64,000 nucleotides of DNA from Myxococcales bacterium (GCA_024640845.1 JAHEEE010000004.1:14567-78566); one strand, 5' to 3'; positions 24,473-46,090 are shown, counted from the first letter of the stretch. Translations and numbers: made by a program. Notes: a model not told the origin generated them from the letters alone.

Positions 24473-24529
24473 GCGCCGGGGTCGCTTTGCGTGCTTGACA
24501 CCAAGGGCGCAATTTGTGAGCCACACCTC

Positions 24530-25708: not shown

Positions 25709-25715
25709 AAGACAA

Positions 25716-27164: not shown

Positions 27165-27175
27165 CTAGTTGGTGT

Positions 27176-28603: not shown

Positions 28604-28619
28604 GGCAGCGGTCCTATCT

Positions 28620-28635
28620 AGCAAGATGCGAGCCC
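28620..28635 (-). promoter_or_regulatory. Sigma-54 (-24/-12) promoter candidate
   Basis: The minus strand reads GGGCTCGCATCTTGCT. GG-N10-GC spacing is correct, the -12 TTGCT is perfect, and the -24 reads GGGCTCG versus TGGCACG. Confidence 0.55.
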
Positions 28636-28689
28636 ATACGTGTTTCCAACAATATTGCGATTGACAGGTGTTCTCAGGCCCGCGGAGGG

Positions 28690-28732
28690 TGCAAACGATG
28701 CGTATGGCGTTTTAGGAGACGCATAATATGCG
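28690..28732. promoter_or_regulatory. Tandem UAS candidates (TGCA-N5-TGCG and CGCA-N5-TGCG)
   Basis: TGCAaacgaTGCG (28690-28702) and gaCGCAtaataTGCGcc (28720-28732) have centres 30 bp apart. They lie 62 and 92 bp upstream of the minus-strand -24 element. Confidence 0.55.
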
Positions 28733-28786
28733 CCACCCCTCCTCAACACCAGCCCTGTCGCTGAAGATCGGATAAATAGGAGGACG

Positions 28787-29221
28787 ATGTCTCAGCTTCT
28801 GACGCGAGAGTTGATGACCCAGCCGGTGATTACGGTCGGGCCAATGAGCCCTCTTCGTGAAGTGATCAACCTCATGGAGACCCACCGAGTTCGCCACGTA
28901 GCGGTGGTCGAGCCTGATACGGAACGCCTGCTCGGTTTGATTTCGCACCGCGATGTCTTGCGAAGCCAGGAGGGGAGCCTCTCTGGCTCGCCGTCAGAAG
29001 AACAAGTTCACATGAACCGGTGGATCGAAGCACGTTGGGTGATGACGAAAGAAGTGCGCACGGTCTATCCCGAAACACCCGCGCTCGAGGCAGCCCTCAT
29101 GTTGCGGTCACAGGGATATGGATGCGCACCTGTCGTCGAGCATGGTCGCTTGGTTGGCATCTTAACCGAGGCGGATTTCGTGGATTACGCAATTCGAATC
29201 TTGTCTGATCCAGGGGTCTGA
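28787..29221 (+). CDS. CBS-pair domain protein
   Basis: 144 aa with two CBS motifs ('HRVRHVAVV', 'GCAPVVEHGRLVGILTEADF'). An AGGAGG ribosome-binding site lies 5 nt upstream. Confidence 0.85.
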   Translation: MSQLLTRELMTQPVITVGPMSPLREVINLMETHRVRHVAVVEPDTERLLGLISHRDVLRSQEGSLSGSPSEEQVHMNRWIEARWVMTKEVRTVYPETPALEAALMLRSQGYGCAPVVEHGRLVGILTEADFVDYAIRILSDPGV

Positions 29222-29261
29222 TCGCCCGCACTCCTCTCCCGGCAGACCCGAGCTCCAAACC

Positions 29262-29277
29262 TGGCACGGTGCTTGCT
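29262..29277 (+). promoter_or_regulatory. Sigma-54 (-24/-12) promoter
   Basis: TGGCACGGTGCTTGCT is a full consensus match. The ATG of the tandem USP lies only 14 nt after the -12 C. Confidence 0.7.
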
Positions 29278-29289
29278 GCAGTATGGTGC

Positions 29290-30180
29290 ATGACCATCAA
29301 GACGATTGTCGTCGGCACCGATCTCGGCGAGTCCGGGCGGCGAGCGATGCAACTGGCGGTTCAAACTGCCCGAGCGACGAACGCAACGCTCTGGCTGGTG
29401 CATGCAAGCGAGGTCGGCTTGGAGCACGGACTGCGCGAGTCGCCGCTCGGCGTTGCCGCCCACGCGCTGCGCCAGCGGATCAAGGGACGCTTCGAGAGCT
29501 CGCTGCAGAAGCTCGAGAGCGAGCGCAGGGAATGCGAGACCGCGGGCTTGAGTTGCCAGACTTCGTGCGAAGAGGGTCAGCCGTGGGAGACGATCCTCCG
29601 AACGGCCGTTTCGGTCAACGCCGACCTGATCGCCGTTGGCGATCCGGCGGGCTCAATTGGCTTGCCCGAGCGGTTGCTCGGCTCGACCGCCGAACGGGTC
29701 GTGCGACAGGCGCCCTGCTCGGTCTTGGTGGTTTGCGGGCGGACTCGAGAGGACTACCAAGGAGCTCGCATCGCGGTCGGGGTCGACTTCTCGCCTCACG
29801 GCATCGAAGCGGTTCGCTGGGCCCGTGACGTGGCGAGCGCCGTCAACGGGGAGGTCGCCCTGTTTCACGTGGTCCCTCATCCGATCACCGAAACCATGCT
29901 GCCCACTGAATGGCCGAGCGTGCTGAGGGGGCTCGCTTCGGCTGCACATGCACGGCTCACCCAACTCGTCGTCAGTGAGGGGCTCGCACCCAATACCTCG
30001 ATTCGCGTGCTCGATGGCGCGGTTGGCAAGATGCTCTGCAATGCGGTCGCCGAAGCCGAGGCCGACTTGCTCTTCGTAGGCAGCAGGGGGCATGGGCGGC
30101 TGCGTGGCATCATGCTCGGAGACACCCCGCAGTACTGCCTGCGCTACTCTCCGGTGCCTGTGCTTGCCGTGCGTCCCTGA
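29290..30180 (+). CDS. Universal stress protein, tandem USP domains
   Basis: Starts 'MTIKTIVVGTDLGESG'. Contains 'ADLIAVG...APCSVLVV' and a second domain 'ARIAVGVDFS...ADLLFVGSRGHGRL...SPVPVLAV'. Confidence 0.9.
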   Translation: MTIKTIVVGTDLGESGRRAMQLAVQTARATNATLWLVHASEVGLEHGLRESPLGVAAHALRQRIKGRFESSLQKLESERRECETAGLSCQTSCEEGQPWETILRTAVSVNADLIAVGDPAGSIGLPERLLGSTAERVVRQAPCSVLVVCGRTREDYQGARIAVGVDFSPHGIEAVRWARDVASAVNGEVALFHVVPHPITETMLPTEWPSVLRGLASAAHARLTQLVVSEGLAPNTSIRVLDGAVGKMLCNAVAEAEADLLFVGSRGHGRLRGIMLGDTPQYCLRYSPVPVLAVRP

Positions 30181-30184
30181 TTCG

Positions 30185-31726
30185 TCAGGTCTCGAAGAGC
30201 GCCTCGAGTCGACGCCGATTCTCCTCGGCCGGCGCCGAGGTGTCGAGACGGACGTGCTCGGATTGCGGTAGCTCGTCGATGGGCTCGAAGCGTGCCTCGA
30301 ACTCGTCGAGCAGGTCGGTTCGCGCGTCGCTTTCATGGGTGCCGCGCGCCTCGCGCTTTGCCAAGCGTTCGAGCAGCAGATCGCGCGGGGCGACACATTC
30401 GACCATCGTGAAAGGCACTCCTTGCCGCGCCGCAAGCGCGCGCGCGGCCGCGCGCGTCGCCGCGCTCCGAAATGACGCATCGATCACCACAGGACGTCCC
30501 GAAGCGAGGACTGTGCTTGCCGCCAACCAGAGCTCGCGGTACACGGCGTCGCTTGCGCTTGGCGAATAAGCTCCGGACCACGCGCCACCCGGCAACGATG
30601 CCTCGGGCGCGACGCCCATGAGATGCTTGCGGGTGCGGTCCGAGCTCACCACTGGCGCGGCGAGCAGCTCCCCGAGGAAACCCGCTGTCCGGCTCTTCCC
30701 GCTCGCGATCATCCCGCCCACGGCGACGAGTCTGGGCGAGAGCAGCGGCGGACGCTCGTACGCCAGCGACAGCATGAAGTAGCGCCGCGCTTCGCGCTTT
30801 GCGCGATCTCGCGTCGCGGCGGACGTCTCCGGATCGGCTGCCAGGAAAGAGGCGATCTTTCCCCGAACGAAAGCGCGGTAGCTCTCGTAGAAGTCGACGA
30901 CCGAGTACAGTCCGTAGTCGTGCGTAGCTCGCGCGTAACGGGCGAGGAATCTCTCCGCGAGGTCGACACGTCCGTGCCATGCAAGATCCATCGACAGGAA
31001 CGCGATGTCGGCGCACACGTCGCCAAATCGAAAACGGTCGTTGAACTCGATGCAATCGATGATGGCGATCGAGCCATCAGGCTCGAAGTAGACGTGCTCT
31101 AGGCGTAGATCCCCGTGCCCGTCGCGCACGCGTTTCGACTTGATCCGTGCGTTGAAACGGGGCGCGTCGGCAAGTATGCCAAGTTGCCAAGCTTCGATTT
31201 CTCGCGCTTGCTCCGGCGTCAGGTACTCGCCAATCGCATCGCGTGTTTGCGCGAAGTTCTCTACTACGTTTTGGCGGATCGTGCTGACCTCGCCGTGCTT
31301 GGCCGTTTCGGCGTCGCACTTTGCGTGCGCGTGAAACTCCGCCACGTGGTCAGCAAGGTCGTCGATGCGCTCGGGCGAGAGGGACCCTTTGGTCAACAGA
31401 GTGTCGCCTCGGTCCTCGTCGGACAAACGGCGCATGTGAACCGCCCAGTCGACGATACGGCCCTCTCCATCGACTGCGTGCATGCCATCTTCATCGACTG
31501 TCACCGGTACTACCCCGAGATACACGTCGGGTGCGAGCCGCCGGTTGAGTCGCACCTCCGACTCGCAGGCTTGTCTTCTCGCGTCGATCGTCGTGAAATC
31601 GAGGAAGCCGAAATTCACCGGCCGCTTGACCTTGAACACCTCGGACTCCGCCAGAAAGACCCACGAGATGTGGGTCTCGATCAGCTCAAAGCCGCTTGCC
31701 TGAAGGTCTGTTTTCACTTGGCTCAT
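30185..31726 (-). CDS. Bifunctional phosphotransferase-fold (APH-like) / P-loop kinase (AAA_33-like) protein
   Basis: The N-terminal half is kinase-like ('HGDLRLEHVYF', 'IIDCIEFND'). The C-terminal half carries the P-loop 'VGGMIASGKS'. This is the same architecture that I recall for mycobacterial Rv2004c-type proteins. Confidence 0.7.
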   Translation of the reverse strand: MSQVKTDLQASGFELIETHISWVFLAESEVFKVKRPVNFGFLDFTTIDARRQACESEVRLNRRLAPDVYLGVVPVTVDEDGMHAVDGEGRIVDWAVHMRRLSDEDRGDTLLTKGSLSPERIDDLADHVAEFHAHAKCDAETAKHGEVSTIRQNVVENFAQTRDAIGEYLTPEQAREIEAWQLGILADAPRFNARIKSKRVRDGHGDLRLEHVYFEPDGSIAIIDCIEFNDRFRFGDVCADIAFLSMDLAWHGRVDLAERFLARYARATHDYGLYSVVDFYESYRAFVRGKIASFLAADPETSAATRDRAKREARRYFMLSLAYERPPLLSPRLVAVGGMIASGKSRTAGFLGELLAAPVVSSDRTRKHLMGVAPEASLPGGAWSGAYSPSASDAVYRELWLAASTVLASGRPVVIDASFRSAATRAAARALAARQGVPFTMVECVAPRDLLLERLAKREARGTHESDARTDLLDEFEARFEPIDELPQSEHVRLDTSAPAEENRRRLEALFET

Positions 31727-31963
31727 GTTTTTGCCGGGTGCTCTGCCAGTATACCAAGTGCAGGTCGCCCGCCCACGTTGCCGGCTCTTCGACTTGCGCT
31801 ACTTAGATCAGGCGATGGCCAAAACATGGATAGTGGTGGCCCATCAGGCGGGCGCGCCCGACGGCGAGATCGATATCGACCGTCCCGGACGATCGTTTCG
31901 AAAGGTCATGGCCGTTTGAGGCGTGCTCTGGCAGCGACCGAAGCAAGCGAAGAGGTAAAAGAG

Positions 31964-32728
31964 ATGGCGAATTTTGAGATGCCCGTGACTGACTACATGA
32001 GCACGCCTGTCGAGACCGTTCGCATCGGCGAGAGCCTGATCACTGCCAACGAGCTGTTTGTCGGACAGGGGGTTTCTGCGTTAGGCGTCGTCGACGACAA
32101 CGGGGCGCTCAAAGGCGTGATCTCCAGAACGGACGTTCTGCACGCGGCGGTCTACGCCCATGGCGAGACCTTTCGCGTGCCCGACCGTCCGGTCGAGGAG
32201 CTGATGCAATCGCCGGCCGTCGCAGTCAGTCCGGATGCTAGCCTCGCGGACGCCGCCAAGTTGATGCTCAAGAATCGCGTGCACCGGGTTTTCGTCACCA
32301 GGGGTGAGCAGCCCGAGGGCGTGCTTTCGACTCGCGACCTCATGCGAGCAGTTCGTGAGAAGCGCCTGAAGGCGCCCATCGCCGAGATCGCGTCTCGCTC
32401 GGTCGTGAAGGTGAAGGCTGAGGACCCGATTGCGCTGGCGGTCGATAGGCTCGACCTCTCGAACAAGCACGGTTTGGTGGTCGTCGAGGGTGGCTTCCCC
32501 GTTGGCGTCTTCGATCAGGCCTGCGCCTTGGAGTCCCGTCGCCTTCCACCGAGCACCGCGGTCGAGCACGCCATGGACGTGCGCATCTTGATCCTGCCGG
32601 GCGAAATCGGAATGGGCCGCGCCGCGGAACAAGCCCTGAGCATGAACGTGCGCCGGATCCTGATCGAAGATGATCTCGGGGTATCGGGAATCGTCGGTGG
32701 TTTGGACTTCGCGAGGGTGATGGGGTGA
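31964..32728 (+). CDS. CBS-domain protein (two CBS pairs)
   Basis: Starts 'MANFEMPVTDYMSTPVETV' and has four CBS-like repeats. The track ORF from 31115 is an antisense-overlapping extension. Confidence 0.8.
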   Translation: MANFEMPVTDYMSTPVETVRIGESLITANELFVGQGVSALGVVDDNGALKGVISRTDVLHAAVYAHGETFRVPDRPVEELMQSPAVAVSPDASLADAAKLMLKNRVHRVFVTRGEQPEGVLSTRDLMRAVREKRLKAPIAEIASRSVVKVKAEDPIALAVDRLDLSNKHGLVVVEGGFPVGVFDQACALESRRLPPSTAVEHAMDVRILILPGEIGMGRAAEQALSMNVRRILIEDDLGVSGIVGGLDFARVMG

Positions 32729-32918: not shown

Positions 32919-35900
32919 CTACAACCACTTCTGAATATGCATTCCGAGCGCCGCTGGCCTCATCGGCGCTCGGTTCCTTGGGAGTACCCGGAAGCGAAGC
33001 TCGTGGCCGCCGCTTGCTCTCACGGCGAAGGCGCCTCGCCAGGTGCTGCGGTTTTCGGCGCCCTCCGATTCAAAGGAGACGACGATCCGGGATGACGGCT
33101 CGTTCTTTTTTCGGCCGAACGAGACGACCGCTTCGACCTCGAGGTCTCGGGCGTCGAGCCCGGGATGGTGGAGCGTCAACTCGGCCGAGACGTGCGTCCC
33201 GACGACGATCTCGTTGCTGCTCAGACCTCCAAAGCGCACGCTCTCCATCGTGATGTCGTTCCAGTGCGTGCGGACTTCTTCGGCAACGTCGGCGAGGGCG
33301 AAGAGTGGACGATAGTTCGACTCGCGAAGCGCGATCGCATCTTGCATGGCGGGCTCATAGAACATGTCCGCATAGTTCGTGAGCATTCGACGGGACGAGA
33401 AACGCGGAATGATGCTCGCCATGCTCGCCTTCATGCGTTCGACCCACGCGACCGGCACGCCCTCCGCATTGCGATCGTGGTACTCGGGCAGAATTTCGCC
33501 CTCGAGCAGCGCCATCGTGATCGCACGGTCGTACGCGCTCGGATCGTGAATCGAAGACGAGGGCAGGTCGATTACCCAGCCATTATCCCCTTGGTAGCCC
33601 TCGAGCCACCAACCGTCATCGACGCTGAGGTTCACACAGCCGTTCATGGCGGCTTTCATACCCGAGGTGCCGCTCGCTTCGAGCGGGCGCGTTGGCGTGT
33701 TTAGCCAGACGTCGCACCCGGCAACCATCCGGCGCGCCTCGTCGATCGAGTAGTCCTCCATGACGATGACGCGGCCCGCAAGCGAGGGGTGCTTCGAAGC
33801 CTGGTAGACTCGCTGGAGGAGCGCCTGGCCATGCCCATCGGCCGGGTGGGCCTTGCCGGCATAGATCATCGTGGCGCCCAGGGTGCCTTCGAGGAGCTTG
33901 GCAAGGCGCTCGGGATCGGCCAGCAACAAGTCGGCGCGCTTGTACGGGGCAAAGCGCCGCGCAAAGCCGATCAGCAGACGGTCCTCGTCGAGGTGGTCGA
34001 GGATGTCCCGCAGCAGCGACAGGTCTTCGCGACGCCTCGTCCAACTCTGGGTCAGGTGCTCTTTCAGCCAGTCGATGTAGTCGGCGCGCAGCTCGCGATG
34101 AATCGACCAAATCTCAGCCGGGTCGTGTTTGCGGAGCCACTTCCACTGGAACCGATCTTCGATCCTGTTGCGCCAATCGTGCCCCATCTCGCGCTCGAAG
34201 AGGCGTTGCCATCGCGGCGCCACCCAGGTCGAGACGTGGACGCCGTTGGTGATGCTGGTGCAAGGGACGTCGTCTGCGTCGTCGAGCTCGGGATAGAACT
34301 GGAGAAACATGTTGCGGGCGACTTCACCGTGCTTCGCGCTCACGCCGTTGATCCGCTCGCAGTTTCTCACGGCGAGCGCGGTCGTGCCGAACTCGTTCGG
34401 AGCGCCGTTTGGTGTATTGCCGATCGCCATCAGGCGCGGCCAATCCATACGAAGCACGTGCTCGAAGCGCGTCAGATACGGGCGCACCATCTCTTCGGGG
34501 AAGTGGTCGTGCCCTGCTGGCACCGGAGTGTGTGTCGTAAAGACAGTCGTGTTGCGGATGTACTCGAATGCTTCTCGTGACCTGAGACCGTGGCGCTGAA
34601 TCAAGTGAGCCGCGCGCGCGATGATCAAGAACGCGCTGTGCCCCTCGTTCATGTGGAACACGTCTGGCTCGATATCGAGCTCGGTCAGCATTTGGTATCC
34701 GCCGAGGCCCAGGATCATCTCTTGACGCAGACGATGCGCAGAGTCGCCGCCGTAAAGACGGTTGGTAATCGCTCGGTCCTCCGGACGGTTCTCGGGCAGG
34801 TTGGTATCGAGCAAGAACAGCGGCACCCGTCCGACCTCGAGTCGCCAAGCGCTCACTTGCACGGGCCCAGTCGGCAGTGGAACCGTCACCCTGAGCGGCG
34901 CGTACTGACCAGCCATCACCTGCTTGAACGGCGGGCTCCCGAAGTCGTTGGTGTCGCTGAGGTGCTCTTGGTGTCCGTCCCGGTCGATCATTTGGCGGAA
35001 GTAGCCATCATGGTAGGCCAGGCCAACGGCGCACAAAGGCAAGTCCAAGTCGCTGGCGGCCTTCAGATGGTCGCCGGCGAGAATGCCGAGGCCGCCCGAA
35101 TAGAGCTTCAGAAACCCAGCGATGCCGAACTCCATGCAGAAGTACGCAATTCTAGGGTCCTTGGCCTGCGTCGCCTCGGACATCTCGCGAGCGGACCGTG
35201 CAACGTCGGCGACGTAGCCTTCGTCCAACGCGAGGTTCATCAAACGCTCGGGCTTGACCTGATCGAGAAGAGCGTGCGGGTTCTCTTCGAGTTTGAACCA
35301 CAGCTCGGGATCGATCTTCTTGAACAAGGAGGCGACTTCGGGGTGCCAGCGCCACCAGAGATTGGCGGCGATGTCTTGAAGCGGTCGCAGCTCGCTCGGG
35401 AGCGCGTTGGTCACCGAGAAGGTGCGAGTGTAGGGGGCGGCCTCCTCGCCCTCCTTGGCGGGAGGGATCACGAATGCACCGAAGACGCCGGAATCTCCCG
35501 AGATCGTTGGCGTCGACGGGACGCTCAGCCGCTCCATGGGCAGTTCCTTGCGTCGGGCTGCGCCGGCCTCCAGCGCGAGCTGGTGTGCCCGCTCATAGTG
35601 CTCCATGAAGTTCGACCAGTCGGTCAGCGCCGCGGTTTCGAGCGAAGCTTGCCCGAGAGCTTCGCGATCCTCGGGTGGCAGATCGATGAACTCGAGCATG
35701 GCCTTCTTGAGGACGTCGCTCACCTCGTCGAAGGACACTCCCTCGCGCTTGAGCACGCGAACACCGGTGCGCTTGCCTTCGCCAAGTGAGGCGGCCCAGC
35801 GCCCGAATCCGGCGCGGTCGGTCGTGATCGCGGGGACCCCGAAGGCCACGGCCTCGAGCGGCGTGTAGCCCCACGGTTCGTAGAAGGAGGGGAATACGCC

Positions 35901-37172
35901 GAGGTCCGCCCCGGGAAGGAGGTCCCAGTACTTCTGGCGAATCAATAGGTCGGTGCCGTCGAGGTAGATCGGGACATGCACGACGTGCACGGGTGCGCCG
36001 TGCGTGTTCTCGACGCCCAACGCGTTGAGCTGATTGGTGATCGGATCGTTCGCCTCGTCGACCAGGTCGTGCGTGCAGCGCAGTGGCGACCCCGCCGCGG
36101 AGCCATGCGCGCGATCCCACAGCGCGCGCTTCGGCTCTGCGTGACCGGCCGGAAGCATGGCATATACGATCACCCGTTTGCCGTCGCGAGACGCAAGCTC
36201 TTCCGGTAGGCCGAAGGCTGCCTCGAAGTAGACGTCCACGCCCTTGTTGACGTACTCGTATCGGCCGGCGAGCGCGAAGATGAGCGTCTTTTCGCGGTCG
36301 TATCGGTCGCCGGTCGTGAGCTCTGCGAGCTTGAAAAGCTCCTCTCTCGCCTGCTGGCGTTGCTCGTGAGCGACTGGTTTGGCGCCAAACCCGTTGGGCA
36401 GAATCACGTCTGGCGTTCGGCCTAACAGATACCGGCATTCGAGCGCGGTGATCTCGCTAACGGTCGTGAAGACGTCTGCCTCGCGCGCCGCGACGGATTC
36501 CATCGAATGCTTCGACGAGACGTTGAGCTCTTTCGCGGCCACTTCCGGGTCGACGTTCGGCAGCGATTGGTAGAAGTTCGGGTCTGCGCGGCGTCCTGCC
36601 AGCGAGCGTCCGAGCATCGTTGCATGGGTCGTGAACACCGTGCCGATCTCAGGCGCCGCCGTCTGGAGGTGTAGAATCGCGGCGGCGGACATCCACTCGT
36701 GGGCCTGCACGAGGGCTTTCTGCCGTCCGGGCAGCAGGAAACGGTCACGAATGTGTTCGATGATCATGCCTGCCGCGTGTGCAAACAAGACCGGGTCGTA
36801 GTAGTCCCAGGCGCCGAACAACGAATCGAGCCCGTACTTCTCCCAGTAGCGGCCGAGAATCTCGTCCTTGCGCGGGTAGAGGCTCGAGTGATTGATCAGC
36901 AGGCACCGAGGCTCCCCTGGCACGAGCCAACGGCCCATCTCGATCCCGATCTCGTGGTCTCGAAGCGATTCGGCAAGCGCGCTATCCCAAATATCGGGGC
37001 GAAACTCGGGGGCGACCCCCTCGGCGCGTGGGACGTCGGGGCCGATCGTGATGTATCGGTCTTCGCCGTGGCGCTGCTGAACCTCCGGGACGCGGCTCGC
37101 CAACACGGTGTGGATACCGCCCACCATGTTGCAGACTTCCCAGGAGATTTCGAAGAACACCGCTCTGCTCAT
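32919..37172 (-). CDS. Fusion protein: GT3 (eukaryote-type) glycogen synthase + GT35 alpha-glucan phosphorylase
   Basis: 1417 aa. The N-terminus 'FFEISWEVCNMVGGIHTVL' resembles the GT3 glycogen synthase N-terminus. The C-terminal half has 'YFCMEFGI', 'GGLGILAGDHLKAASDL' and the PLP-Lys motif 'EASGTSGMKAAMNG' of alpha-glucan phosphorylases. Confidence 0.85.
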   Translation of the reverse strand: MSRAVFFEISWEVCNMVGGIHTVLASRVPEVQQRHGEDRYITIGPDVPRAEGVAPEFRPDIWDSALAESLRDHEIGIEMGRWLVPGEPRCLLINHSSLYPRKDEILGRYWEKYGLDSLFGAWDYYDPVLFAHAAGMIIEHIRDRFLLPGRQKALVQAHEWMSAAAILHLQTAAPEIGTVFTTHATMLGRSLAGRRADPNFYQSLPNVDPEVAAKELNVSSKHSMESVAAREADVFTTVSEITALECRYLLGRTPDVILPNGFGAKPVAHEQRQQAREELFKLAELTTGDRYDREKTLIFALAGRYEYVNKGVDVYFEAAFGLPEELASRDGKRVIVYAMLPAGHAEPKRALWDRAHGSAAGSPLRCTHDLVDEANDPITNQLNALGVENTHGAPVHVVHVPIYLDGTDLLIRQKYWDLLPGADLGVFPSFYEPWGYTPLEAVAFGVPAITTDRAGFGRWAASLGEGKRTGVRVLKREGVSFDEVSDVLKKAMLEFIDLPPEDREALGQASLETAALTDWSNFMEHYERAHQLALEAGAARRKELPMERLSVPSTPTISGDSGVFGAFVIPPAKEGEEAAPYTRTFSVTNALPSELRPLQDIAANLWWRWHPEVASLFKKIDPELWFKLEENPHALLDQVKPERLMNLALDEGYVADVARSAREMSEATQAKDPRIAYFCMEFGIAGFLKLYSGGLGILAGDHLKAASDLDLPLCAVGLAYHDGYFRQMIDRDGHQEHLSDTNDFGSPPFKQVMAGQYAPLRVTVPLPTGPVQVSAWRLEVGRVPLFLLDTNLPENRPEDRAITNRLYGGDSAHRLRQEMILGLGGYQMLTELDIEPDVFHMNEGHSAFLIIARAAHLIQRHGLRSREAFEYIRNTTVFTTHTPVPAGHDHFPEEMVRPYLTRFEHVLRMDWPRLMAIGNTPNGAPNEFGTTALAVRNCERINGVSAKHGEVARNMFLQFYPELDDADDVPCTSITNGVHVSTWVAPRWQRLFEREMGHDWRNRIEDRFQWKWLRKHDPAEIWSIHRELRADYIDWLKEHLTQSWTRRREDLSLLRDILDHLDEDRLLIGFARRFAPYKRADLLLADPERLAKLLEGTLGATMIYAGKAHPADGHGQALLQRVYQASKHPSLAGRVIVMEDYSIDEARRMVAGCDVWLNTPTRPLEASGTSGMKAAMNGCVNLSVDDGWWLEGYQGDNGWVIDLPSSSIHDPSAYDRAITMALLEGEILPEYHDRNAEGVPVAWVERMKASMASIIPRFSSRRMLTNYADMFYEPAMQDAIALRESNYRPLFALADVAEEVRTHWNDITMESVRFGGLSSNEIVVGTHVSAELTLHHPGLDARDLEVEAVVSFGRKKNEPSSRIVVSFESEGAENRSTWRGAFAVRASGGHELRFRVLPRNRAPMRPAALGMHIQKWL

Positions 37173-38371
37173 GGTCGAGTTCGCTTTTCCGCGGGCGCCA
37201 ACACAGAGAGCTTCAAGTCTTTCATGACGTTCATATAGTGGATAAACGCGTCGTAGGGTCCCTCATAAGGGCTGAAGTAGTCGTGCACCTCGCCGTCTGA
37301 GGCCAATTTGGTCGCCATGTAGTAGAAATGGTCCGATGTCTGCAAGCGTCTCCATAGGGCGAGAAGATGAGAATTGTTGCGACGGCGGACCGCCGGGCCG
37401 ATCGAGTAAACTTCGTTCAGCGCCCGCTGCTGCATGGCGTTACCGCGCCAGGCGCTGATGTCGCGAGCCGCATCGGCCCAGGATACCGTTCGATGGAAGG
37501 GGAGCTCGCCTAGGGCGGGGTAGCGGTCGACCACCTGGCTGGGCGTCTGGATGTCCCAATGGGGGTGGGTGAACAGGAGGTCGGGTAGGTGCTCGAGGAA
37601 ATCGAAAATACCCGTCTCCTTCCACTGGTGCTCACCGAACGTTTCGTAGTCCATGAACAGATTGATGACGTCCCCGACACCGCTATGGCCGTGAACCCAG
37701 CCGGCGAACTTCTCAGCCGTCAATGGATACTCCGCCCAGGCTCGGTTCGAGAAACGAAACGCGATGTCGTCGGAGAGCTTGTAGTTCTTGGCGAGAAGGC
37801 GCATTTCGCGCCCGGCGACCTTGTAGACGAAATTGGGGCTTCGCCAATCCAGGATGTCGTCGGCGCCTTCACAGAGCATCGCGTCAAACCCGAGGTCCGC
37901 GATGAATTGCCCGATTTCGTCGTTGTAGATGAGCTCCGTGTTCCGGAAGATGCGGGGGGTTTGGCCGAACTCCTTCTTCATGAGCTCGATCTGCATGTCG
38001 ATCTGGGCTCTAAATTCGTCCTTGTCGTAGAGCGCGGCAAGGCTGTGATAATACGTCTCGGCGACGAACTCGACAGCCCCGGTTTCGGCGAGACGCACGA
38101 AGCTGTCCATCACCTCGGGCGCGTATTTCTTCATCTGCTCGATGGCGACGCCAGTAAGCGCGTACGAGATGCGAAAGCGACCGTCGGTACGCTCGATCAG
38201 ACGCAGCATCGAGTTGTTCGCTGGTAGGTAGCACTTGTCAGCCACCTTCCGAAGGACTTCGGCGTTGAGCTTGTCGTCGAAATACTCGTGGTCGCGACCG
38301 ACCTGGAGCGCACCGTACGGCCGTAGTCGATACGGCTGGTGCACCTCGAAATAAAAACAAACCGACGGCAT
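37169..38371 (-). CDS. Glycoside hydrolase family 57 (alpha-amylase/branching-enzyme family)
   Basis: Starts 'MPSVCFYFEVHQPYRLRPY' (GH57 region I) and contains 'DYETFGEH'. Its stop overlaps the downstream start by 4 nt. Confidence 0.85.
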   Translation of the reverse strand: MPSVCFYFEVHQPYRLRPYGALQVGRDHEYFDDKLNAEVLRKVADKCYLPANNSMLRLIERTDGRFRISYALTGVAIEQMKKYAPEVMDSFVRLAETGAVEFVAETYYHSLAALYDKDEFRAQIDMQIELMKKEFGQTPRIFRNTELIYNDEIGQFIADLGFDAMLCEGADDILDWRSPNFVYKVAGREMRLLAKNYKLSDDIAFRFSNRAWAEYPLTAEKFAGWVHGHSGVGDVINLFMDYETFGEHQWKETGIFDFLEHLPDLLFTHPHWDIQTPSQVVDRYPALGELPFHRTVSWADAARDISAWRGNAMQQRALNEVYSIGPAVRRRNNSHLLALWRRLQTSDHFYYMATKLASDGEVHDYFSPYEGPYDAFIHYMNVMKDLKLSVLAPAEKRTRP

Positions 38372-38379: not shown

Positions 38380-39864
38380 TCAACCCCGCACGACCGATTC
38401 GTATACCGGCACGAGCTTCTCTGCGGCAGCATCCCAGTGGATGTGCCGAATCTCTTCGCGCGCGCGCTCGACGAGTGTGCGCCGGAGCTCGGGCAGCTCC
38501 AATATCGCCACGATCTGGCTCGCCATCTTGTCGACGTCCCAGAAGTCGACCTTGAGCGCGTTTCGCAGCACCTCGGAAACCCCGGACTGCTTCGACACGA
38601 CGACGGGTCGGTCGTAGCTCATCGCCTCGAGCGGCGCGATGCCGAATGGCTCTGACACCGAGGGCATCACGTACACGTCCGCGGTCGAAAAAGCACGCTC
38701 GATCTCGGCGCCCCGCAGCCACCCAGGGAAGCGAAACGACTCGGTGATTCCGAGGTCTTCGACGAGCGCCTCCATTCGCGGAAGCATGTCGCCAGCCCCC
38801 GCCATGATGAACACCGCGTCGGGCACGTGCTGCAACACGCGTGCGGCAGCTTGGACGAAGTACTCGGGCCCCTTCTGAAACGTCACCCGGCCGAGGAACA
38901 GGACGACCGGACCGGTCGTTCTGCGCTGCTCCTTGTAGGCTTGAACCGTCTCGCGGGCGTAGACGCCATTGTGAACGACCGAGATCTTGCGGAGTGGGGT
39001 CCCGTGTACCTGGTTGATCAGGCTACGCGTGTAGTAGCTGACTGCGATGACCCGAGTCGCATGCTCCAGTCCCAAGCGCTCAATCGACACGATGTCACGA
39101 TCGGCGCCGTGACCTGCGCGGTCGTACTCGAGGCTATGCACATGGACCAATAGAGGCGCGCCGATGCGGTGCGCGATCTCGACGCCCGCCGGGAAGGTCA
39201 TCCAGTCGTGCGCATGCACGAGGTCGTACTTGTTGCCCGCGACGCGCCGTGTAGCCGCCATGGCATACCGACCGACCTCGGCGAAGAGGTTCTCGCCGTA
39301 GTGGGCATCGCTCGGCGCTTCATCTGTGAGGGGCAGATCGCCTCCTGGGACGTGCACGTGCTCGAGGCGAGTGATCGCTGCTGGGGGCCCAGGAAGTGGT
39401 CGGTGCTGCCCTCGGGCCATCATTCTTTCGACGGCCGTGGGGGCGAGCTTGTGGGTCGCTATGAGCTCTTGATACGTCGCTTCGTCGAGGTAGGGCTTGA
39501 GCATCGCCGGGACTCGGATCGTCCGCACTCGGGTCGCCGTGCCTTCGCGGGCTTCGGCTTGGGTGGCCTCGACCGCGGCAATGAAGTTTGGATCCGTCGC
39601 GAGCGCCGGCTCGGCGGCGAGCAGCGCAGCGAAGCGCGCGGGGATATGGGCCGGCGTCTCCACCCGAGTCTCGGGTGCCGGGTCCGCCGAGTCCGCTCCG
39701 AGCAGGTGCATGTGAGGCGCGTCTTCCTCGCCGTAGAGCTTGGGCACGAGAAAGTCGATTTCGATGCCGCGCTTCGCCAACGCAGTGGTCAGGCCTTCGC
39801 ATGCCGTGCCAAGACCGCCGCTGATGTGAGGAGGGTATTCCCAGCCGATCATCAAGATCTTCAT
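38380..39864 (-). CDS. Glycosyltransferase (GT4/GT5-like, glycogen-synthase-like) with internal insertion
   Basis: Starts 'MKILMIGWEYPPHISGGLGTAC' and has the C-terminal motif 'EPFGIAPLEAM'. The start overlaps the upstream stop (ATGA). Confidence 0.8.
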   Translation of the reverse strand: MKILMIGWEYPPHISGGLGTACEGLTTALAKRGIEIDFLVPKLYGEEDAPHMHLLGADSADPAPETRVETPAHIPARFAALLAAEPALATDPNFIAAVEATQAEAREGTATRVRTIRVPAMLKPYLDEATYQELIATHKLAPTAVERMMARGQHRPLPGPPAAITRLEHVHVPGGDLPLTDEAPSDAHYGENLFAEVGRYAMAATRRVAGNKYDLVHAHDWMTFPAGVEIAHRIGAPLLVHVHSLEYDRAGHGADRDIVSIERLGLEHATRVIAVSYYTRSLINQVHGTPLRKISVVHNGVYARETVQAYKEQRRTTGPVVLFLGRVTFQKGPEYFVQAAARVLQHVPDAVFIMAGAGDMLPRMEALVEDLGITESFRFPGWLRGAEIERAFSTADVYVMPSVSEPFGIAPLEAMSYDRPVVVSKQSGVSEVLRNALKVDFWDVDKMASQIVAILELPELRRTLVERAREEIRHIHWDAAAEKLVPVYESVVRG

Positions 39865-41861
39865 GGGCCTGCCATCTTGGCGACGCGGAGCACCTCGGAC
39901 ACGCTCCATGCCTGTGCGGGGGTGCCACCCGGACGGTGAGGTGCGTCTCCATCGAACACCTCGCCGATCTGTCCGATGCAGCCTTCGGTCCGGAGATGTG
40001 CGCTGAGCGCCGCCAATGCGGGCATCATTTCTTCTTTCGCAGCCTCAGAACCTTCGACCGCGGCGACCGCGTCGGCGTACAGCCCCAGCAGCCACGGCCA
40101 GACCGTACCCTGATGGTATGCACGGTCCCGCTCGGTTTGCGCGCCTCGGTAAAACGGTCGGTAATCCGGGTCGTCGGGCGAAAGCGTACGCATCCCTACG
40201 GGGGTCAGGAGCTTGTCGCGCACCGCACGCAGCGCCCGTTGCTTTCGCTCCTTTTGAATCGGAACGCCGGGCAACACCAAAGCCCAAAGCTGGTTCGGTC
40301 GCAGCTTGCCGTCGCCATGATGTCCGTTGTGTGTGTCCGTCAAGAAGCCCTGATCATGAAGCCAGAACTTTTCCTCGAAGTGATCGGAGAGTTTCTTCGC
40401 CGTTTCGCTCCACGTTTCGATGAATTCCGGGCGGAGCTTTTTGGCCCAGCGGAGAGCGGAAAGAAGGCCCGAGAGCCACAGCGCGTTGAGGTCGACGGCG
40501 TACCCTTGCCGGGGCGTGACCGCGTGGCCGTCGACGAGCGCATCCATCCAAGTGAGCGCCCACGGCCCCTGCTCGACGAACAAGAACCCCTGTGCGTCGA
40601 TCCGGACGCGTGAATCAGCGCCCGCCGCGATGCTCTCGATCAGATCGAGGCATGCCTCCTGAAGCGGGGCGATTCGCTGGCTTCGTGTACGTTTCGAGAC
40701 CAGCGAAGTCGCGCGAATGAACAGAAGCGACGCGTCGATGGCCTCGCCGTTGGAGGGCACGTCGCCGCTTTGCGGGATGTTGGGGACGAGGCCGTTTTCG
40801 AGACGGCTCGCCAGGGATTCGAGGATATCGAGAGCCTTGCCGACCTCGTCGCGGGCCAAGCAAAGGCCAGGTAGGGCGATCAAGGTGTCGCGCGACCACT
40901 CTCCGAACCAGGGGTAGCCCGCGATGACGCCCGTGCGGCCTCCGTCGAGCTCGACGAGATAAGCATCCGCGGCATCTTCGAGCTCGCGCACGAAGGAACG
41001 ATGAGGTGCGAGGACCGAGCTCAGCACTTGGGGCTCGTGGGAGGTCGCCCGCGTGGTGCCGAGTCGGATGCAAAATGCCCCGTCGTGTTCGAGTCGCAGC
41101 CGGAACTCACCCGGTGTGAACAGGTCCTCGGCGTCGTCGTAGCCGCGCGCGCGCTCCCACTCGTAGTGGACGCCCTCGTACCAATGCCCGTCAGCGTGGA
41201 ATCGACTCGAAGCGCCGTGCATGCTCGCGATCAACGGAGGGACGTTCTTGTACGGATGCATGACGACCCGGAGCGAATCGCCCTGCTCGACCTCGATTTC
41301 GCCGTTCATGAACGAGTTCGCGAAAGTGAGCTTGTGAATCGGGCGACACCGAATCAGTGGGCGGAGCCGAAGGTCGACTGGCTTCTGGAGACCCTCGATC
41401 GAATACCGAATCCAGACCGCATCAGCGTCGTCCTCGAGCCAGAGCTCCCGGGTCACCGTCAGACCGGCGAACTGGTAGGTCCAGCGGGGCAGCGGCTCGA
41501 ATCGGGTGAGGTAGTCGACGCCCGTCGGCTCGACGGTGCTGCCCCAGTCGTAGCTGTGCAACGCGATCTCCTCGTCGGCTCCGACGTCGAACCACTCCTC
41601 GACTTCCGCGACCATGTTGAGTGGCTCACCGACGCCCGGCTCTCGAACTGTCAGAAGGCTGTGATACTTGCGGCGCGGGCAGCGATCGATCGTTCCCATC
41701 GCGAACGAGCCGCCCCGATTCACGCTCAACCACTCCGCGTCCGGGGTCGTCGCTGCGGCGGTGACTTCGGTGGAGTCCTCGGAGCTCCCCGGCTCCCTCG
41801 AAAGAAGACGCAGCCCTGGCGCGCCATCAGAGCGAGCAGGAAACCAACTGGGCAGAATCAC
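39861..41861 (-). CDS. Glycogen debranching enzyme (amylo-alpha-1,6-glucosidase, GDE_N + GDE_C/GH133-like)
   Basis: 666 aa. 'RKYHSLL' marks the N-terminal domain. The C-terminal (alpha/alpha)6 region has 'YPWFGEWSRDT' and 'YHQGTVWPWLLG'. GTG start. Confidence 0.85.
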   Translation of the reverse strand: MILPSWFPARSDGAPGLRLLSREPGSSEDSTEVTAAATTPDAEWLSVNRGGSFAMGTIDRCPRRKYHSLLTVREPGVGEPLNMVAEVEEWFDVGADEEIALHSYDWGSTVEPTGVDYLTRFEPLPRWTYQFAGLTVTRELWLEDDADAVWIRYSIEGLQKPVDLRLRPLIRCRPIHKLTFANSFMNGEIEVEQGDSLRVVMHPYKNVPPLIASMHGASSRFHADGHWYEGVHYEWERARGYDDAEDLFTPGEFRLRLEHDGAFCIRLGTTRATSHEPQVLSSVLAPHRSFVRELEDAADAYLVELDGGRTGVIAGYPWFGEWSRDTLIALPGLCLARDEVGKALDILESLASRLENGLVPNIPQSGDVPSNGEAIDASLLFIRATSLVSKRTRSQRIAPLQEACLDLIESIAAGADSRVRIDAQGFLFVEQGPWALTWMDALVDGHAVTPRQGYAVDLNALWLSGLLSALRWAKKLRPEFIETWSETAKKLSDHFEEKFWLHDQGFLTDTHNGHHGDGKLRPNQLWALVLPGVPIQKERKQRALRAVRDKLLTPVGMRTLSPDDPDYRPFYRGAQTERDRAYHQGTVWPWLLGLYADAVAAVEGSEAAKEEMMPALAALSAHLRTEGCIGQIGEVFDGDAPHRPGGTPAQAWSVSEVLRVAKMAGP

Positions 41862-43325: not shown

Positions 43326-43619
43326 CTAGTCCTTCGTGCGAGGGGGTTGCGGCTCGGGCTCCGGCTCGAGCTCTCCGGGCGGCGGCTTCGGGCGTCGCTC
43401 CAGGTCGACCTCGAGCACGGGGGGTGGGTTCGGTAGGTTCAGCGGTCCGGAGGTTCGCAGAACGTTGCCTTCCGGCGGGTCGACCTTTCTCTCAGGCTCG
43501 TATTCTTCGGCCTGACCCATCTCCGTGCCCTGGGCGCCTCGAACACGGCCGCTCGCGCAGCCCGCGAGAATGCAGGCGAGGCAGACGCCCTGAACGAATG
43601 TGCGGATGAGCTTGGTCAT
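43326..43619 (-). CDS. Small lipoprotein, Pro/Glu-rich
   Basis: 'MTKLIRTFVQGVCLACILAGCASG' contains a lipobox (LAGC). The start overlaps the upstream stop (ATGA). Confidence 0.55.
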   Translation of the reverse strand: MTKLIRTFVQGVCLACILAGCASGRVRGAQGTEMGQAEEYEPERKVDPPEGNVLRTSGPLNLPNPPPVLEVDLERRPKPPPGELEPEPEPQPPRTKD

Positions 43620-44452: not shown

Positions 44453-44497
44453 TCAAGGAGCCGTGTAGGGGTCTGCGGGTCGTGCGTGGCGCTAGGC

Positions 44498-45394: not shown

Positions 45395-45429
45395 GTGGCC
45401 TCTCTTGTCTCGTGAAGTCGCTGGCCTCG

Positions 45430-45891: not shown

Positions 45892-45928
45892 GGGTTCCTC
45901 CCGTTCCTCATCTTCCGCTCGGATGTGA

Positions 45929-45944
45929 TGCAAAGAATGCGCCA
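45929..45944 (-). promoter_or_regulatory. Sigma-54 (-24/-12) promoter for the hemerythrin operon
   Basis: The minus strand reads TGGCGCATTCTTTGCA, with correct spacing and a perfect -12 TTGCA. Confidence 0.65.
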
Positions 45945-45975
45945 AACGTTTAGCAGGATTTCGCTTCGCAGGACA

Positions 45976-46017: not shown

Positions 46018-46059
46018 TGTTTCTCGCTATGCTTTGCAGCCAATACCTGCAACCCAGGT

Positions 46060-46075: not shown

Positions 46076-46090
46076 AGCGGAAGGGTAAAC

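What the first reader, a model, noticed from the sequence alone, without database searches (positions are those of the whole stretch)
32919..37172. 1417-aa single polypeptide joining a eukaryote-type (GT3) glycogen synthase to a GT35 alpha-glucan phosphorylase
The N-terminal ~600 aa begins 'FFEISWEVCNMVGGIHTVL', which closely resembles the N-terminus of animal/fungal GT3 glycogen synthases as I remember them (FEVAWEVANKVGGIYTV). It does not resemble bacterial GT5 GlgA. The C-terminal ~800 aa is an alpha-glucan phosphorylase with 'GGLGILAGDHLKAASDL' and the pyridoxal-phosphate Lys motif 'EASGTSGMKAAMNG'. Chain elongation and phosphorolysis are opposing reactions on the same polymer, so fusing them implies built-in reciprocal control or a glucan-remodelling machine. 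I believe similar fusions are annotated in some Bacteroidota, but I know of no biochemical characterisation. No glgC is present in the window, which is consistent with a UDP-glucose-using GT3 enzyme.
Basis: partly seen in the sequence, partly recalled or inferred. Interest (0 to 1): 0.65.

Follow-up and report, generated by a model that had tools for sequence, protein, structure and literature searches.

The report
Fused glycogen synthase–phosphorylase gene
One real 1417-residue bacterial gene joins a glycogen-building enzyme to a glycogen-degrading enzyme; this fusion type is already catalogued and widespread, but I found no biochemical test of the fused protein.

Summary
ORF 32919-37172 (-) encodes 1417 aa. 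The N-terminal part is a GT3 glycogen synthase (Pfam PF05693, E 4e-85). The C-terminal part is a complete GT35 alpha-glucan phosphorylase (TIGR02094, 718 bits). A roughly 35-40 residue unconserved tether, predicted disordered, joins them.

It is not an assembly artefact. At least 120 database proteins, and 78 of the 80 retrieved genome loci from about 600 relatives, carry the same uninterrupted fusion. These come from Bacteroidota, Planctomycetota, Bdellovibrionota and Myxococcota. Catalytic residues of both halves are essentially invariant.

The gene ends a conserved four-gene cassette: GH133-like debrancher, GT4, GH57, then the fusion.

The synthase half lacks the eukaryotic glucose-6-phosphate and arginine-cluster control elements. 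The phosphorylase half is a "clade 2" enzyme like Segatella copri GP, which is pentameric, binds glycogen particles and is inhibited by AMP.

The architecture is already catalogued (KEGG K16153; JGI "phosphorylase/glycogen(starch) synthase"). I found no biochemical study of the fused protein. A natural split version also exists.

Built-in reciprocal control is not supported by anything I could test. The most likely role is co-delivery of both chain-end enzymes to the glycogen particle, with direction set by metabolites. Verdict: already known, moderate interest.

The parts
32919..37172 (-). Whole ORF: 1417-aa GT3::GT35 fusion (glycogen phosphorylase/synthase, KEGG K16153 type), stop codon included
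35538..37172 (-). GT3 glycogen synthase module (aa 1-545), a GT-B fold
   Evidence: PF05693 E 4e-85. Human GYS1 and yeast Gsy2p E about 1e-72. Foldseek TM (target-normalised) 0.75-0.77 to GYS1.
35853..35879 (-). E-X7-E catalytic motif EPWGYTPLE (E432...E440), equivalent to human GYS1 E510/E518
   Evidence: Alignment. E432 is in 79/79 and E440 in 78/79 fused sequences. Coordinates.
37125..37127 (-). Met16 at the K-x-G-G position (GYS1 Lys39). It is Met in the Myxococcota/Bdellovibrionota/Planctomycetota fusions and Lys in Bacteroidota fusions and most stand-alone GT3 enzymes.
35409..35537 (-). Inter-module tether (aa 546-588): unconserved in sequence, constrained in length, predicted disordered
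   Evidence: Column identity 0.14-0.17. Length 39-59, median 42, measured from aa 533 to aa 592. pLDDT below 50 for aa 550-584.
35118..35408 (-). N-terminal alpha-helical domain of the phosphorylase (DUF3417, aa ~589-685). In ScGP this domain builds the pentamer.
   Evidence: PF11897 E 1e-26. Aligns to ScGP residues 10-111. PMC12912991.
33351..35117 (-). GT35 phosphorylase catalytic core (aa ~686-1274)
   Evidence: TIGR02094 718 bits. 9L6I E 1.6e-178. Foldseek rmsd 2.6 A over 634 columns.
33654..33656 (-). Lys1173, the pyridoxal-phosphate Schiff-base lysine (equivalent to ScGP Lys609)
   Evidence: (79/79)
33732..33734 (-). Arg1147, equivalent to ScGP Arg583 of the distal AMP site that drives decamer formation
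   Evidence: Arg or Lys in 71/79 fused sequences.
32922..33350 (-). C-terminal beta-sheet domain (GlgP_C, PF28476), the hallmark of clade-2 phosphorylases (aa 1275-1417)
   Evidence: Aligns to ScGP up to residue 836 of 852. PF28476:GlgP_C is precomputed on the orthologue. PMC12912991.
37169..38371 (-). GH57 gene (400 aa) directly upstream. Its TGA stop overlaps the fusion's ATG (ATGA), consistent with translational coupling.
   Evidence: PF03065 E 3e-80. Sequence. Found beside the fusion in 62 of 80 loci.
38380..39909 (-). GT4 glycosyltransferase gene of unknown specificity (509 aa as an ORF; about 500 aa in the orthologue's gene call)
   Evidence: Conserved in 53 of 80 loci. Orthologue gene call.
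39861..41861 (-). First gene of the cassette: GDE_N/GDE_C amylo-alpha-1,6-glucosidase, an archaeal-type debranching enzyme (GH133-like)
   Evidence: PF06202 E 7e-93, PF12439 E 2e-50. TIGR01561. Conserved in 52 of 80 loci.

Best explanation
The ORF is a genuine single gene for a two-enzyme alpha-glucan protein of an already catalogued type (KEGG K16153, 'glycogen phosphorylase/synthase'). It is the last gene of a four-gene operon: GH133-like debranching enzyme, GT4, GH57, then GT3::GT35.

Shown:
- The N-terminal module (aa 1-545) is a catalytically intact GT3 retaining glycosyltransferase core.
- The C-terminal module (aa ~589-1417) is a complete clade-2 pyridoxal-phosphate alpha-glucan phosphorylase. 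It has the helical N-domain, the catalytic core and the GlgP_C beta domain.
- The two modules are joined by a tether that is unconserved, predicted disordered, and restricted in length.
- The synthase module lacks the eukaryotic glucose-6-phosphate site, the arginine cluster and the phosphorylated tails.
- The fusion has one main evolutionary origin and has been split again in some Bacteroidaceae.

Inferred:
- The GT3 module extends alpha-1,4 chains from a nucleotide-glucose. UDP-glucose is the probable donor, by analogy with the GT3 enzyme of Prevotella bryantii.
- The GT35 module removes glucose from the same non-reducing ends as glucose-1-phosphate.
- The phosphorylase part, like its Segatella copri homologue, oligomerises and grips the glycogen particle. 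The fusion therefore delivers synthase and phosphorylase in 1:1 amounts to the same chain ends.
- Net direction is set by metabolites: nucleotide-glucose supply against phosphate, and AMP acting on the phosphorylase part. It is not set by eukaryote-like covalent or glucose-6-phosphate control, nor by a rigid inter-domain switch.
- The operon partners supply debranching (GH133-like) and possibly branching, transfer or priming (GH57, GT4).
For: Domain identity.

Fusion is real and conserved: at least 120 full-length proteins at 98-39% identity; about 598 relatives in species genomes; 78 of the 80 retrieved loci uninterrupted; independent gene calls.

Both active sites are under selection across 79 fused sequences. 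GT3: E8, E12, G18, G19, H183, R304, K310, E432 in 79/79 and E440 in 78/79. GT35: K1173, R1073, K1078, Y1077, H881, E843 and EASGTSG in 79/79.

Eukaryotic control elements are absent. GYS1 R579/R580/R582/R586/R588/R591 align to P500/E501/R503/G507/A509/E512. GYS1 H501 aligns to D423, which is Asp in 77/79.

Tether.

The cassette is conserved in the same order in four phyla. ATGA start/stop overlap with GH57.

Clade-2 GP properties (pentamer wraps a glycogen particle; AMP at the distal site with R583 gives a decamer that excludes glycogen): PMC12912991. Window R1147 is equivalent to R583.

UDP-glucose use by a bacterial GT3 enzyme: Lou et al. 1997, as cited in PMC7935935 and PMC4432691.

One main origin: in a neighbour-joining tree of GT3 domains, all 91 fused sequences fall in a clade that also holds 17 stand-alone and 6 sequences of uncertain architecture; 66 stand-alone lie outside it.
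Against: No enzymology exists for any fused member, so the donor nucleotide, both activities, the oligomeric state and the AMP response are extrapolated from stand-alone homologues. Those are 38% identical (ScGP) and 27-28% identical (GYS1/Gsy2p).

The usual Lys/Arg of the K-x-G-G motif is Met16 in this lineage. This might alter donor binding.

The tether length is tightly constrained (39-59 residues), and AlphaFold2 pTM is 0.72 for a 1200-residue two-module construct. A preferred inter-module geometry is therefore not excluded.

No nucleotide-sugar pyrophosphorylase gene is linked to the cassette in the window or in the 80 loci.
Confidence: 0.8

Rival explanations
1. Built-in reciprocal switch or remodelling machine. 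The two modules pack in a defined geometry on a common glucan-binding surface, so that activity of one allosterically silences or feeds the other.
For: The tether length is narrowly constrained (39-59, median 42) although its sequence is free. pTM of 0.72 is higher than expected for two fully independent bodies. The fusion has been retained across four phyla.
Against: The tether is unconserved and predicted disordered. A natural split into two adjacent genes exists. S. copri has a functional stand-alone phosphorylase (PMC12912991). No inter-domain contact could be assessed, because the tools give no PAE or coordinates and full length exceeds the 1200-residue limit.
Confidence: 0.12
2. Self-priming synthase. 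The phosphorylase module works mainly in the synthetic direction, using glucose-1-phosphate to make or extend short primers for the primer-dependent GT3 module. This would substitute for the missing glycogenin.
For: Eukaryotic GT3 synthases need a glycogenin-made primer, and no glycogenin homologue is known in prokaryotes with GT3 (PMC11046441). ScGP catalyses the reverse reaction with a favourable Km for glucose-1-phosphate.
Against: ScGP's kcat in the reverse direction is small. A phosphorylase itself needs a primer. The conserved GT4 in the same operon is an equally good candidate initiator. By established knowledge of phosphorylases, cellular phosphate to glucose-1-phosphate ratios normally favour phosphorolysis.
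Confidence: 0.1
3. One module is a catalytically dead scaffold (pseudoenzyme) kept only for glucan binding or oligomerisation.
For: Met16 replaces the conserved basic residue of the K-x-G-G motif in this lineage.
Against: All other catalytic and substrate-binding residues of both modules are invariant in 79 sequences at 35-85% identity. Met16 is itself conserved within a clade that keeps E-X7-E, R304 and K310.
Confidence: 0.04
4. Sequencing or assembly artefact: a lost stop codon or frameshift has merged two adjacent genes.
For: Adjacent unfused GT3 and GT35 genes do exist in one Bacteroidaceae genome.
Against: 78 of the 80 retrieved loci, and at least 120 database proteins from many independent assemblies, show the same continuous frame. 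The closest relatives at 83-98% identity are 1417-1420 aa. GC3 is uniform across the ORF.
Confidence: 0.01

Closest known systems
KEGG K16153 'glycogen phosphorylase/synthase [EC 2.4.1.1 2.4.1.11]'; JGI product 'phosphorylase/glycogen(starch) synthase'; NCBI 'alpha-glucan family phosphorylase' of about 1400 aa
   Same: Identical architecture (GT3, tether, DUF3417, GT35, GlgP_C) and length. Hits cover 98-100% of the query at 39-98% identity. The same four-gene cassette surrounds them.
   Different: Nothing architectural. This copy belongs to the Myxococcota (Polyangiales-like) branch, which has Met instead of Lys at the K-x-G-G position. The family is known only from annotation. I found no biochemical study.
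Segatella copri glycogen phosphorylase ScGP (PDB 9L6I; clade-2 GP; PMC12912991)
   Same: Homologous over its whole length (ScGP residues 10-836, E 1.6e-178, 38% identity). The predicted fold superposes at rmsd 2.6 A. The PLP lysine, R507/R508/K513/H316/E278/Y512 and the distal-AMP-site R583 are all matched.
   Different: ScGP is a stand-alone 852-aa protein. Here its N-terminal loop is continuous with a 545-aa synthase. The pentamer/decamer behaviour is untested for the fusion.
Eukaryotic GT3 glycogen synthases (human GYS1, yeast Gsy2p, C. elegans GSY-1)
   Same: Same family and fold (E about 1e-72, target-normalised TM 0.75-0.77). Same E-X7-E, GRYE-x-NKG, HEW and TTHAT motifs.
   Different: Five of the six residues of the regulatory arginine cluster are absent. 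The G6P-site His is an invariant Asp. There are no phosphorylatable N- or C-terminal tails. The region between aa 342 and 362 is about 50 residues shorter than GYS1 370-440. By my own recollection that GYS1 stretch is the tetramerisation insertion; I did not test this. No glycogenin partner is known.
Stand-alone prokaryotic GT3 synthases (Bacteroides/Prevotella, PVC group, archaea), including the UDP-glucose-dependent glycogen synthase activity of Prevotella bryantii B14
   Same: Closest sequence relatives of the N-half, about 35-48% identical and 520-620 aa. One Bacteroidaceae genome has GT3 and GT35 as adjacent genes in the same order.
   Different: Not fused. 66 of 83 stand-alone representatives lie outside the fused clade.
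Other fused glucan-pathway enzymes: GlgA-GlgB of Waddlia, TreS-Mak/Pep2, MalQ-GlgB of Neisseria
   Same: Two consecutive or related alpha-glucan enzymes sit in one polypeptide (PMC7935935, PMC11046441).
   Different: Those fusions join steps that run in the same metabolic direction. This one joins formally opposing reactions.

Membership tests
CAZy GT3 / Pfam PF05693 glycogen synthase | Profile match above the curated threshold | tested here: met
   PF05693 scores 287 bits against a cutoff of 27, E 4.3e-85. GT5 GlgA models score far below their cutoffs.
CAZy GT3 / Pfam PF05693 glycogen synthase | GT-B fold superposable on solved GT3 synthases | tested here: met
   AlphaFold2 pLDDT is about 90 over aa 1-545. 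Foldseek to GYS1/Gsy2p gives E about 1e-41 and target-normalised TM 0.70-0.77.
CAZy GT3 / Pfam PF05693 glycogen synthase | Catalytic E-X7-E motif and donor-binding Arg/Lys (GYS1 E510/E518 and R331/K337 by the alignment) | tested here: met
   E432/E440 and R304/K310. They are present in 78-79 of 79 fused sequences.
CAZy GT3 / Pfam PF05693 glycogen synthase | Basic residue in the N-terminal K/R-x-G-G motif | tested here: not met
   Met16 aligns to GYS1 Lys39. This position is M in 15/79 loci sequences and 51/91 fused representatives, against K in 71/83 stand-alone enzymes. It is a motif variant, not a family-defining failure.
CAZy GT3 / Pfam PF05693 glycogen synthase | UDP-glucose:glycogen 4-alpha-glucosyltransferase activity | not testable with these tools
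   There is only analogy with P. bryantii. No linked pyrophosphorylase gene was found.
Eukaryote-style regulated glycogen synthase (G6P-activated, phosphorylation-inhibited) | Arginine cluster (GYS1 R579-R591) and G6P-site His501 | tested here: not met
   The aligned residues are P500, E501, R503, G507, A509, E512 and D423. D423 is Asp in 77/79, and R503 is Arg in only 20/79.
CAZy GT35 / TIGR02094 alpha-glucan family phosphorylase (clade 2 of Shobu et al. 2026) | Profile match above the curated threshold | tested here: met
   TIGR02094 scores 718 bits against a cutoff of 191.7 over model positions 1-600.
CAZy GT35 / TIGR02094 alpha-glucan family phosphorylase (clade 2 of Shobu et al. 2026) | PLP-binding lysine and phosphate/substrate residues (ScGP K609, R507, R508, K513, H316) | tested here: met
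   K1173, R1072, R1073, K1078 and H881. They are present in 77-79 of 79 sequences.
CAZy GT35 / TIGR02094 alpha-glucan family phosphorylase (clade 2 of Shobu et al. 2026) | Extra C-terminal beta-sheet domain and N-terminal helical domain | tested here: met
   The alignment to ScGP runs from residue 10 to 836 of 852. DUF3417 E 1e-26. PF28476 GlgP_C is recorded on the orthologue.
CAZy GT35 / TIGR02094 alpha-glucan family phosphorylase (clade 2 of Shobu et al. 2026) | Distal AMP site arginine (ScGP R583) | tested here: met
   R1147 in the window. The position is K or R in 71/79 of the family. AMP binding itself was not tested.
CAZy GT35 / TIGR02094 alpha-glucan family phosphorylase (clade 2 of Shobu et al. 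2026) | Pentamer and AMP-induced decamer | not testable with these tools
   The paper reports that AlphaFold does not reproduce the asymmetric pentamer even for ScGP.
K16153-type GT3::GT35 fusion | Both modules in one uninterrupted reading frame, in the order GT3 then GT35, with full-length orthologues | tested here: met

The most novel reading that the evidence does not exclude
The phosphorylase halves assemble, like S. copri GP, into a ring that clamps a glycogen beta-particle. Each protomer would carry a synthase head on a leash of fixed length (about 40 residues). The fusion would then be a particle-bound, AMP-switched build-or-burn machine. Together with the co-transferred GT4, GH57 and GH133-like genes, it would form a self-contained, glycogenin-independent and GlgC-independent glycogen pathway that has moved between four bacterial phyla. 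It could also be the enzymatic basis of the simultaneous glycogen synthesis and degradation ('glycogen cycling') reported in some gut and rumen bacteria.
Probability: 0.18. Interest if true: 0.7.

Novelty: already known. Interest (0 to 1): 0.35.

Why it matters
Synthesis and phosphorolysis of glycogen act on the same chain ends and are normally kept apart by elaborate regulation. A protein that covalently links them raises the question of how futile cycling is avoided or exploited. This protein lacks the eukaryotic controls and is conserved in several hundred species, including abundant gut Bacteroidales such as Alistipes, Rikenellaceae and Muribaculaceae.

The 2026 structure of the stand-alone S. 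copri phosphorylase makes the question experimentally approachable.

For this window specifically, the finding adds little. It is a well-conserved Myxococcota copy of a catalogued gene family in its usual operon.

Tried and rejected
- Seven literature searches for a described or characterised GT3-GT35 fusion found only annotation-level uses of K16153 and reviews that do not mention the fusion (papers read).
- An exact look-up of the window protein in the assembly index found nothing. The 83% orthologue was used instead.
- I looked for a conserved nucleotide-sugar pyrophosphorylase (galU or glgC) next to the cassette, to infer the donor. There is none in the window ORFs scanned or among recurrent neighbours in 80 loci. 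A GH13/CBM48 branching-type enzyme recurs in 21 loci; the rest are housekeeping genes.
- The sigma-70 promoter scan found no site. Terminator-like sites were fewer than in shuffles, so they are uninformative.
- The GH57 neighbour has no PDB relative by phmmer. The GT4 neighbour has only generic GT4 hits. Neither role could be assigned.
- Some loci showed matches about 5.8 kb long, which looked like possible insertions or split forms. They turned out to be tblastn joining the upstream GT4 gene.
- The full-length protein exceeds the 1200-residue structure limit, and the tool returns no PAE or coordinates. Whether the two active sites face a common surface could therefore not be answered. Only aa 1-1200 were modelled.
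- I judged a residue-coevolution analysis between the halves infeasible, because only about 200 sequences were accessible.

Full report
**1. Observation**

The ORF listing and translate confirm an ATG-initiated ORF of 1417 codons at 32919..37172 on the minus strand. GC3 is 0.80, as in the other real genes of this 63% GC window.

**2. Domain assignment**

Pfam gives PF05693 Glycogen_syn (GT3) at E 4.3e-85, DUF3417 at aa 591-685, and PF00343 Phosphorylase. NCBIfam gives TIGR02094 'alpha-glucan family phosphorylase' at 718 bits (cutoff 191.7) over aa 675-1274. The GT5 GlgA models fall far below their cutoffs.

Against PDB sequences, the N-half matches human GYS1 and yeast Gsy2p at E about 1e-72. 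The C-half matches 9L6I at E 1.6e-178 over chain residues 10-836 of 852, with 38% identity.

An AlphaFold2 model of aa 1-1200, built from an 86-sequence alignment, has mean pLDDT 89.6. Foldseek places its two bodies on ScGP (rmsd 2.6 A over 634 columns) and on GYS1/Gsy2p (target-normalised TM 0.70-0.77). No solved chain covers both bodies.

**3. The fusion is real**

A search of 5.8 billion proteins returned at least 120 proteins of 1390-1455 aa. They have the same Pfam set and 98-100% query coverage at 98% down to 39% identity. JGI names them 'phosphorylase/glycogen(starch) synthase' or 'glycogen phosphorylase/synthase'. NCBI names them 'alpha-glucan family phosphorylase', in Polyangiales, Myxococcota, Bdellovibrionota, Oligoflexia and Planctomycetes.

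The 80 retrieved loci are mostly Bacteroidales (Alistipes, Rikenellaceae, Muribaculaceae, Dysgonomonas, Paludibacter, Butyricimonas, Prevotellaceae), plus Planctomycetota, Bdellovibrionota and 'Deltaproteobacteria'.

In 78 of those 80 loci one frame runs without a stop from the GT3 hit to the GT35 hit. One locus is cut by a contig end. One (L048, a Bacteroidaceae MAG) is a natural split: the GT3 gene ends ...KARMVK-TAA-TAA, and five codons later the GT35 gene starts MKIRVSNSNTPDW.

An 83%-identical orthologue in a Polyangiales MAG (GCA_049666605.1) is called as one 1418-aa gene in two independent records, with the same gene order around it. The window therefore most likely comes from a Polyangiales-like myxobacterium.

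**4. Anatomy and conservation**

I aligned 79 fused sequences from the window and the loci.

- GT3 catalytic signature: E8, E12, G18, G19, H183, R304, K310 and E432 in 79/79; E440 in 78/79. E432/E440 align to GYS1 E510/E518, the E-X7-E motif.
- GT35 signature: G693, G694, G696, D701, K704, E843, H881, R1073, Y1077, K1078, R1079, K1107, E1165 and G1168-G1171, K1173 and N1177 within the EASGTSGMKAAMNG segment, all 79/79.
- These map onto the ScGP residues described in the structure paper: PLP-Lys609, R507, R508, K513, H316, E278 and Y512.

Both modules are thus under purifying selection for catalysis.

One exception is the K-x-G-G position (GYS1 Lys39). It is Met16 here. It is Met in the non-Bacteroidota fusions, and Lys in Bacteroidota fusions and in 71 of 83 stand-alone GT3 representatives.

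The eukaryotic control apparatus is missing:
- The six arginines of the GYS1 cluster (R579, R580, R582, R586, R588, R591) align to P500, E501, R503, G507, A509 and E512.
- GYS1 His501 aligns to D423, which is Asp in 77/79.
- The N-terminus starts only 5 residues before the first strand.
- The stretch equivalent to GYS1 370-440 is about 50 residues shorter.

**5. The junction**

Column identity drops to 0.14-0.17 for aa 541-580. AlphaFold2 gives pLDDT below 50 for aa 550-584, and pTM is 0.72. The sequence is free, but the length between the last GT3 helix and the invariant P592 is 39-59 residues, median 42.

The last part of this stretch corresponds to ScGP's own N-terminal loop, residues 1-23. 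This describes a flexible leash of restricted length rather than a packed interface. A preferred geometry cannot be excluded with these tools.

**6. Context**

The fusion's ATG overlaps the TGA of the upstream gene (ATGA at 37169-37172). Upstream on the same strand lie:
- a 400-aa GH57 protein (PF03065, E 3e-80);
- a roughly 500-aa GT4 glycosyltransferase with only generic GT4 similarity (best PDB hits sucrose-phosphate-synthase-like, MshA and GlgM at about 1e-17);
- a GDE_N/GDE_C amylo-alpha-1,6-glucosidase of the archaeal type.

The same order (GDE, GT4, GH57, fusion) is found in Myxococcota, Bdellovibrionota, Planctomycetota and most Bacteroidales loci. In Alistipes the three genes lie about 4 kb downstream instead. 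Unbiased clustering of all flanking ORFs recovers exactly these three as the recurrent neighbours, in 62, 53 and 52 of 80 loci. Next comes a GH13/CBM48 branching-type enzyme in 21 loci. No nucleotidyltransferase recurs.

A recent review notes a GT4-GH133-GH57 cluster in the archaeon Picrophilus and calls the GT4 role unresolved (PMC11046441).

Among the window ORFs scanned there is no glgC, but also no galU.

**7. Evolution**

A search of 1.84 billion representatives with the GT3 half found 428 clusters at E <= 1e-30. Fused forms (about 1400 aa) and stand-alone forms (520-620 aa) are interleaved in the ranking.

In a neighbour-joining tree of 181 GT3 domains, all 91 fused sequences fall in one clade. 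That clade also holds 17 stand-alone sequences and 6 of uncertain architecture. 66 stand-alone sequences lie outside it. This indicates one main fusion event followed by occasional fission, as in L048, and spread of the whole cassette across phyla.

**8. How it most likely works**

Shown: there are two intact active sites on one chain joined by a flexible tether; the eukaryotic regulation is absent; the phosphorylase is of the clade-2 type with the distal AMP-site arginine retained (R1147 equivalent to ScGP R583; K or R in 71/79); and the gene belongs to a glucan operon.

From the literature: ScGP forms an asymmetric pentamer whose wide face wraps a glycogen particle. AMP at the distal site drives decamer formation, which excludes glycogen but not maltopentaose (PMC12912991). 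P. bryantii, which lacks glgC, makes glycogen from UDP-glucose with a eukaryote-type synthase (Lou et al. 1997, cited in PMC7935935 and PMC4432691).

Inference: the GT3 module elongates alpha-1,4 chains from UDP-glucose. The GT35 module phosphorolyses the same ends. The fusion guarantees equimolar co-localisation of both on the particle, probably through oligomerisation of the phosphorylase part. Direction is set by substrate and effector levels. If both run at once, the net reaction is UDP-Glc + Pi giving UDP + G1P. That is glycogen cycling, an energy-spilling behaviour described for some rumen bacteria. Whether any of those organisms carries the fusion was not tested.

**9. Rivals**

- Artefact: essentially excluded.
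- Dead-scaffold module: unlikely given the invariant catalytic residues; only Met16 speaks for it.
- Primer-making role for the phosphorylase half: possible but unsupported, because the GT4 gene is an alternative initiator.

**10. Comparison and novelty**

The architecture has its own KEGG orthologue number (K16153, used as an alpha-glucan synthesis marker in PMC11093988) and standard product names. Near-identical proteins (98%) are already in public collections. It is therefore already known as a kind.

What is missing is any enzymology or structure of a fused member. The library searches and a 2024 comprehensive review that discusses prokaryotic GT3 enzymes gave none.

Interest is moderate to low for this window. 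It is higher for the family as a whole, now that a structure of the stand-alone clade-2 phosphorylase exists.

Noticed in passing
window 38380-39909 (-) and 37169-38371 (-): The GT4 glycosyltransferase and the short (400 aa) GH57 protein travel with the fusion and the GH133-like debrancher in four phyla, but neither has an assignable specificity. GT4 has only generic PDB hits at about 1e-17. GH57 has no PDB hit by phmmer despite a Pfam E of 3e-80. GT4 is a candidate glycogenin-like initiator. GH57 is a candidate branching or transfer enzyme.
   Followed up: partly
L048:2232-2320 (Bacteroidaceae MAG DAIUBN010000059.1): This is a natural fission of the fusion. The GT3 gene ends with TAA TAA, and the GT35 gene starts five codons later, in the same frame and order.
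   Followed up: yes
window 37125-37127 (-), codon 16: The conserved Lys/Arg of the K-x-G-G donor-binding motif is Met in the Myxococcota/Bdellovibrionota/Planctomycetota fusions. It is M in 51 of 91 fused representatives, against K in 71 of 83 stand-alone GT3 enzymes. The consequence for the donor nucleotide is unknown.
   Followed up: partly
window 27176-28624 (-): A WS/DGAT wax-ester synthase/diacylglycerol acyltransferase (PF03007, E 7e-69) lies about 4 kb from the glycogen cassette, so two storage-compound systems are neighbours. The arrangement is the same in the 83% Polyangiales relative.
   Followed up: partly
window 24491-32728 and 43616-48382: The cassette sits among stress, low-oxygen and signalling genes. 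These include Usp genes at 29269-30180 (+) and 44498-45394 (-), a CBS-domain ORF at 31115-32728 (+), an AAA_33 kinase-like gene, a sigma-54 activator next to a histidine kinase (protoglobin-type in the relative), and ccoG. The relative's locus adds further Usp and CBS genes and a hemerythrin gene. This suggests a starvation or hypoxia regulon. It was not tested.
   Followed up: no
window 49169-51511 (-): A single 780-aa ORF fuses cbb3-type cytochrome oxidase subunits I and II (CcoN-CcoO; NF011053, 1169 bits).
   Followed up: no
window 6924-10727 (+): A membrane H+-pyrophosphatase (PF03030, 900 bits) is directly followed by phosphoglucose isomerase. Both are relevant to hexose-phosphate and PPi balance, but they lie 22-28 kb from the cassette.
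   Followed up: no
L006:12247-14250 (-) and 20 other Bacteroidales loci: A GH13 enzyme with CBM48 and an alpha-amylase C-terminal domain (branching-enzyme or isoamylase type) sits directly next to the fusion in 21 of 80 loci. It is absent from the window's cassette.
   Followed up: partly
window 30185-31726 (-) versus 31115-32728 (+): These two long ORFs overlap by about 600 nt. The relative's annotation shows the CBS gene is only 254 aa, so the plus-strand ORF listed from 31115 overextends its true start.
   Followed up: partly
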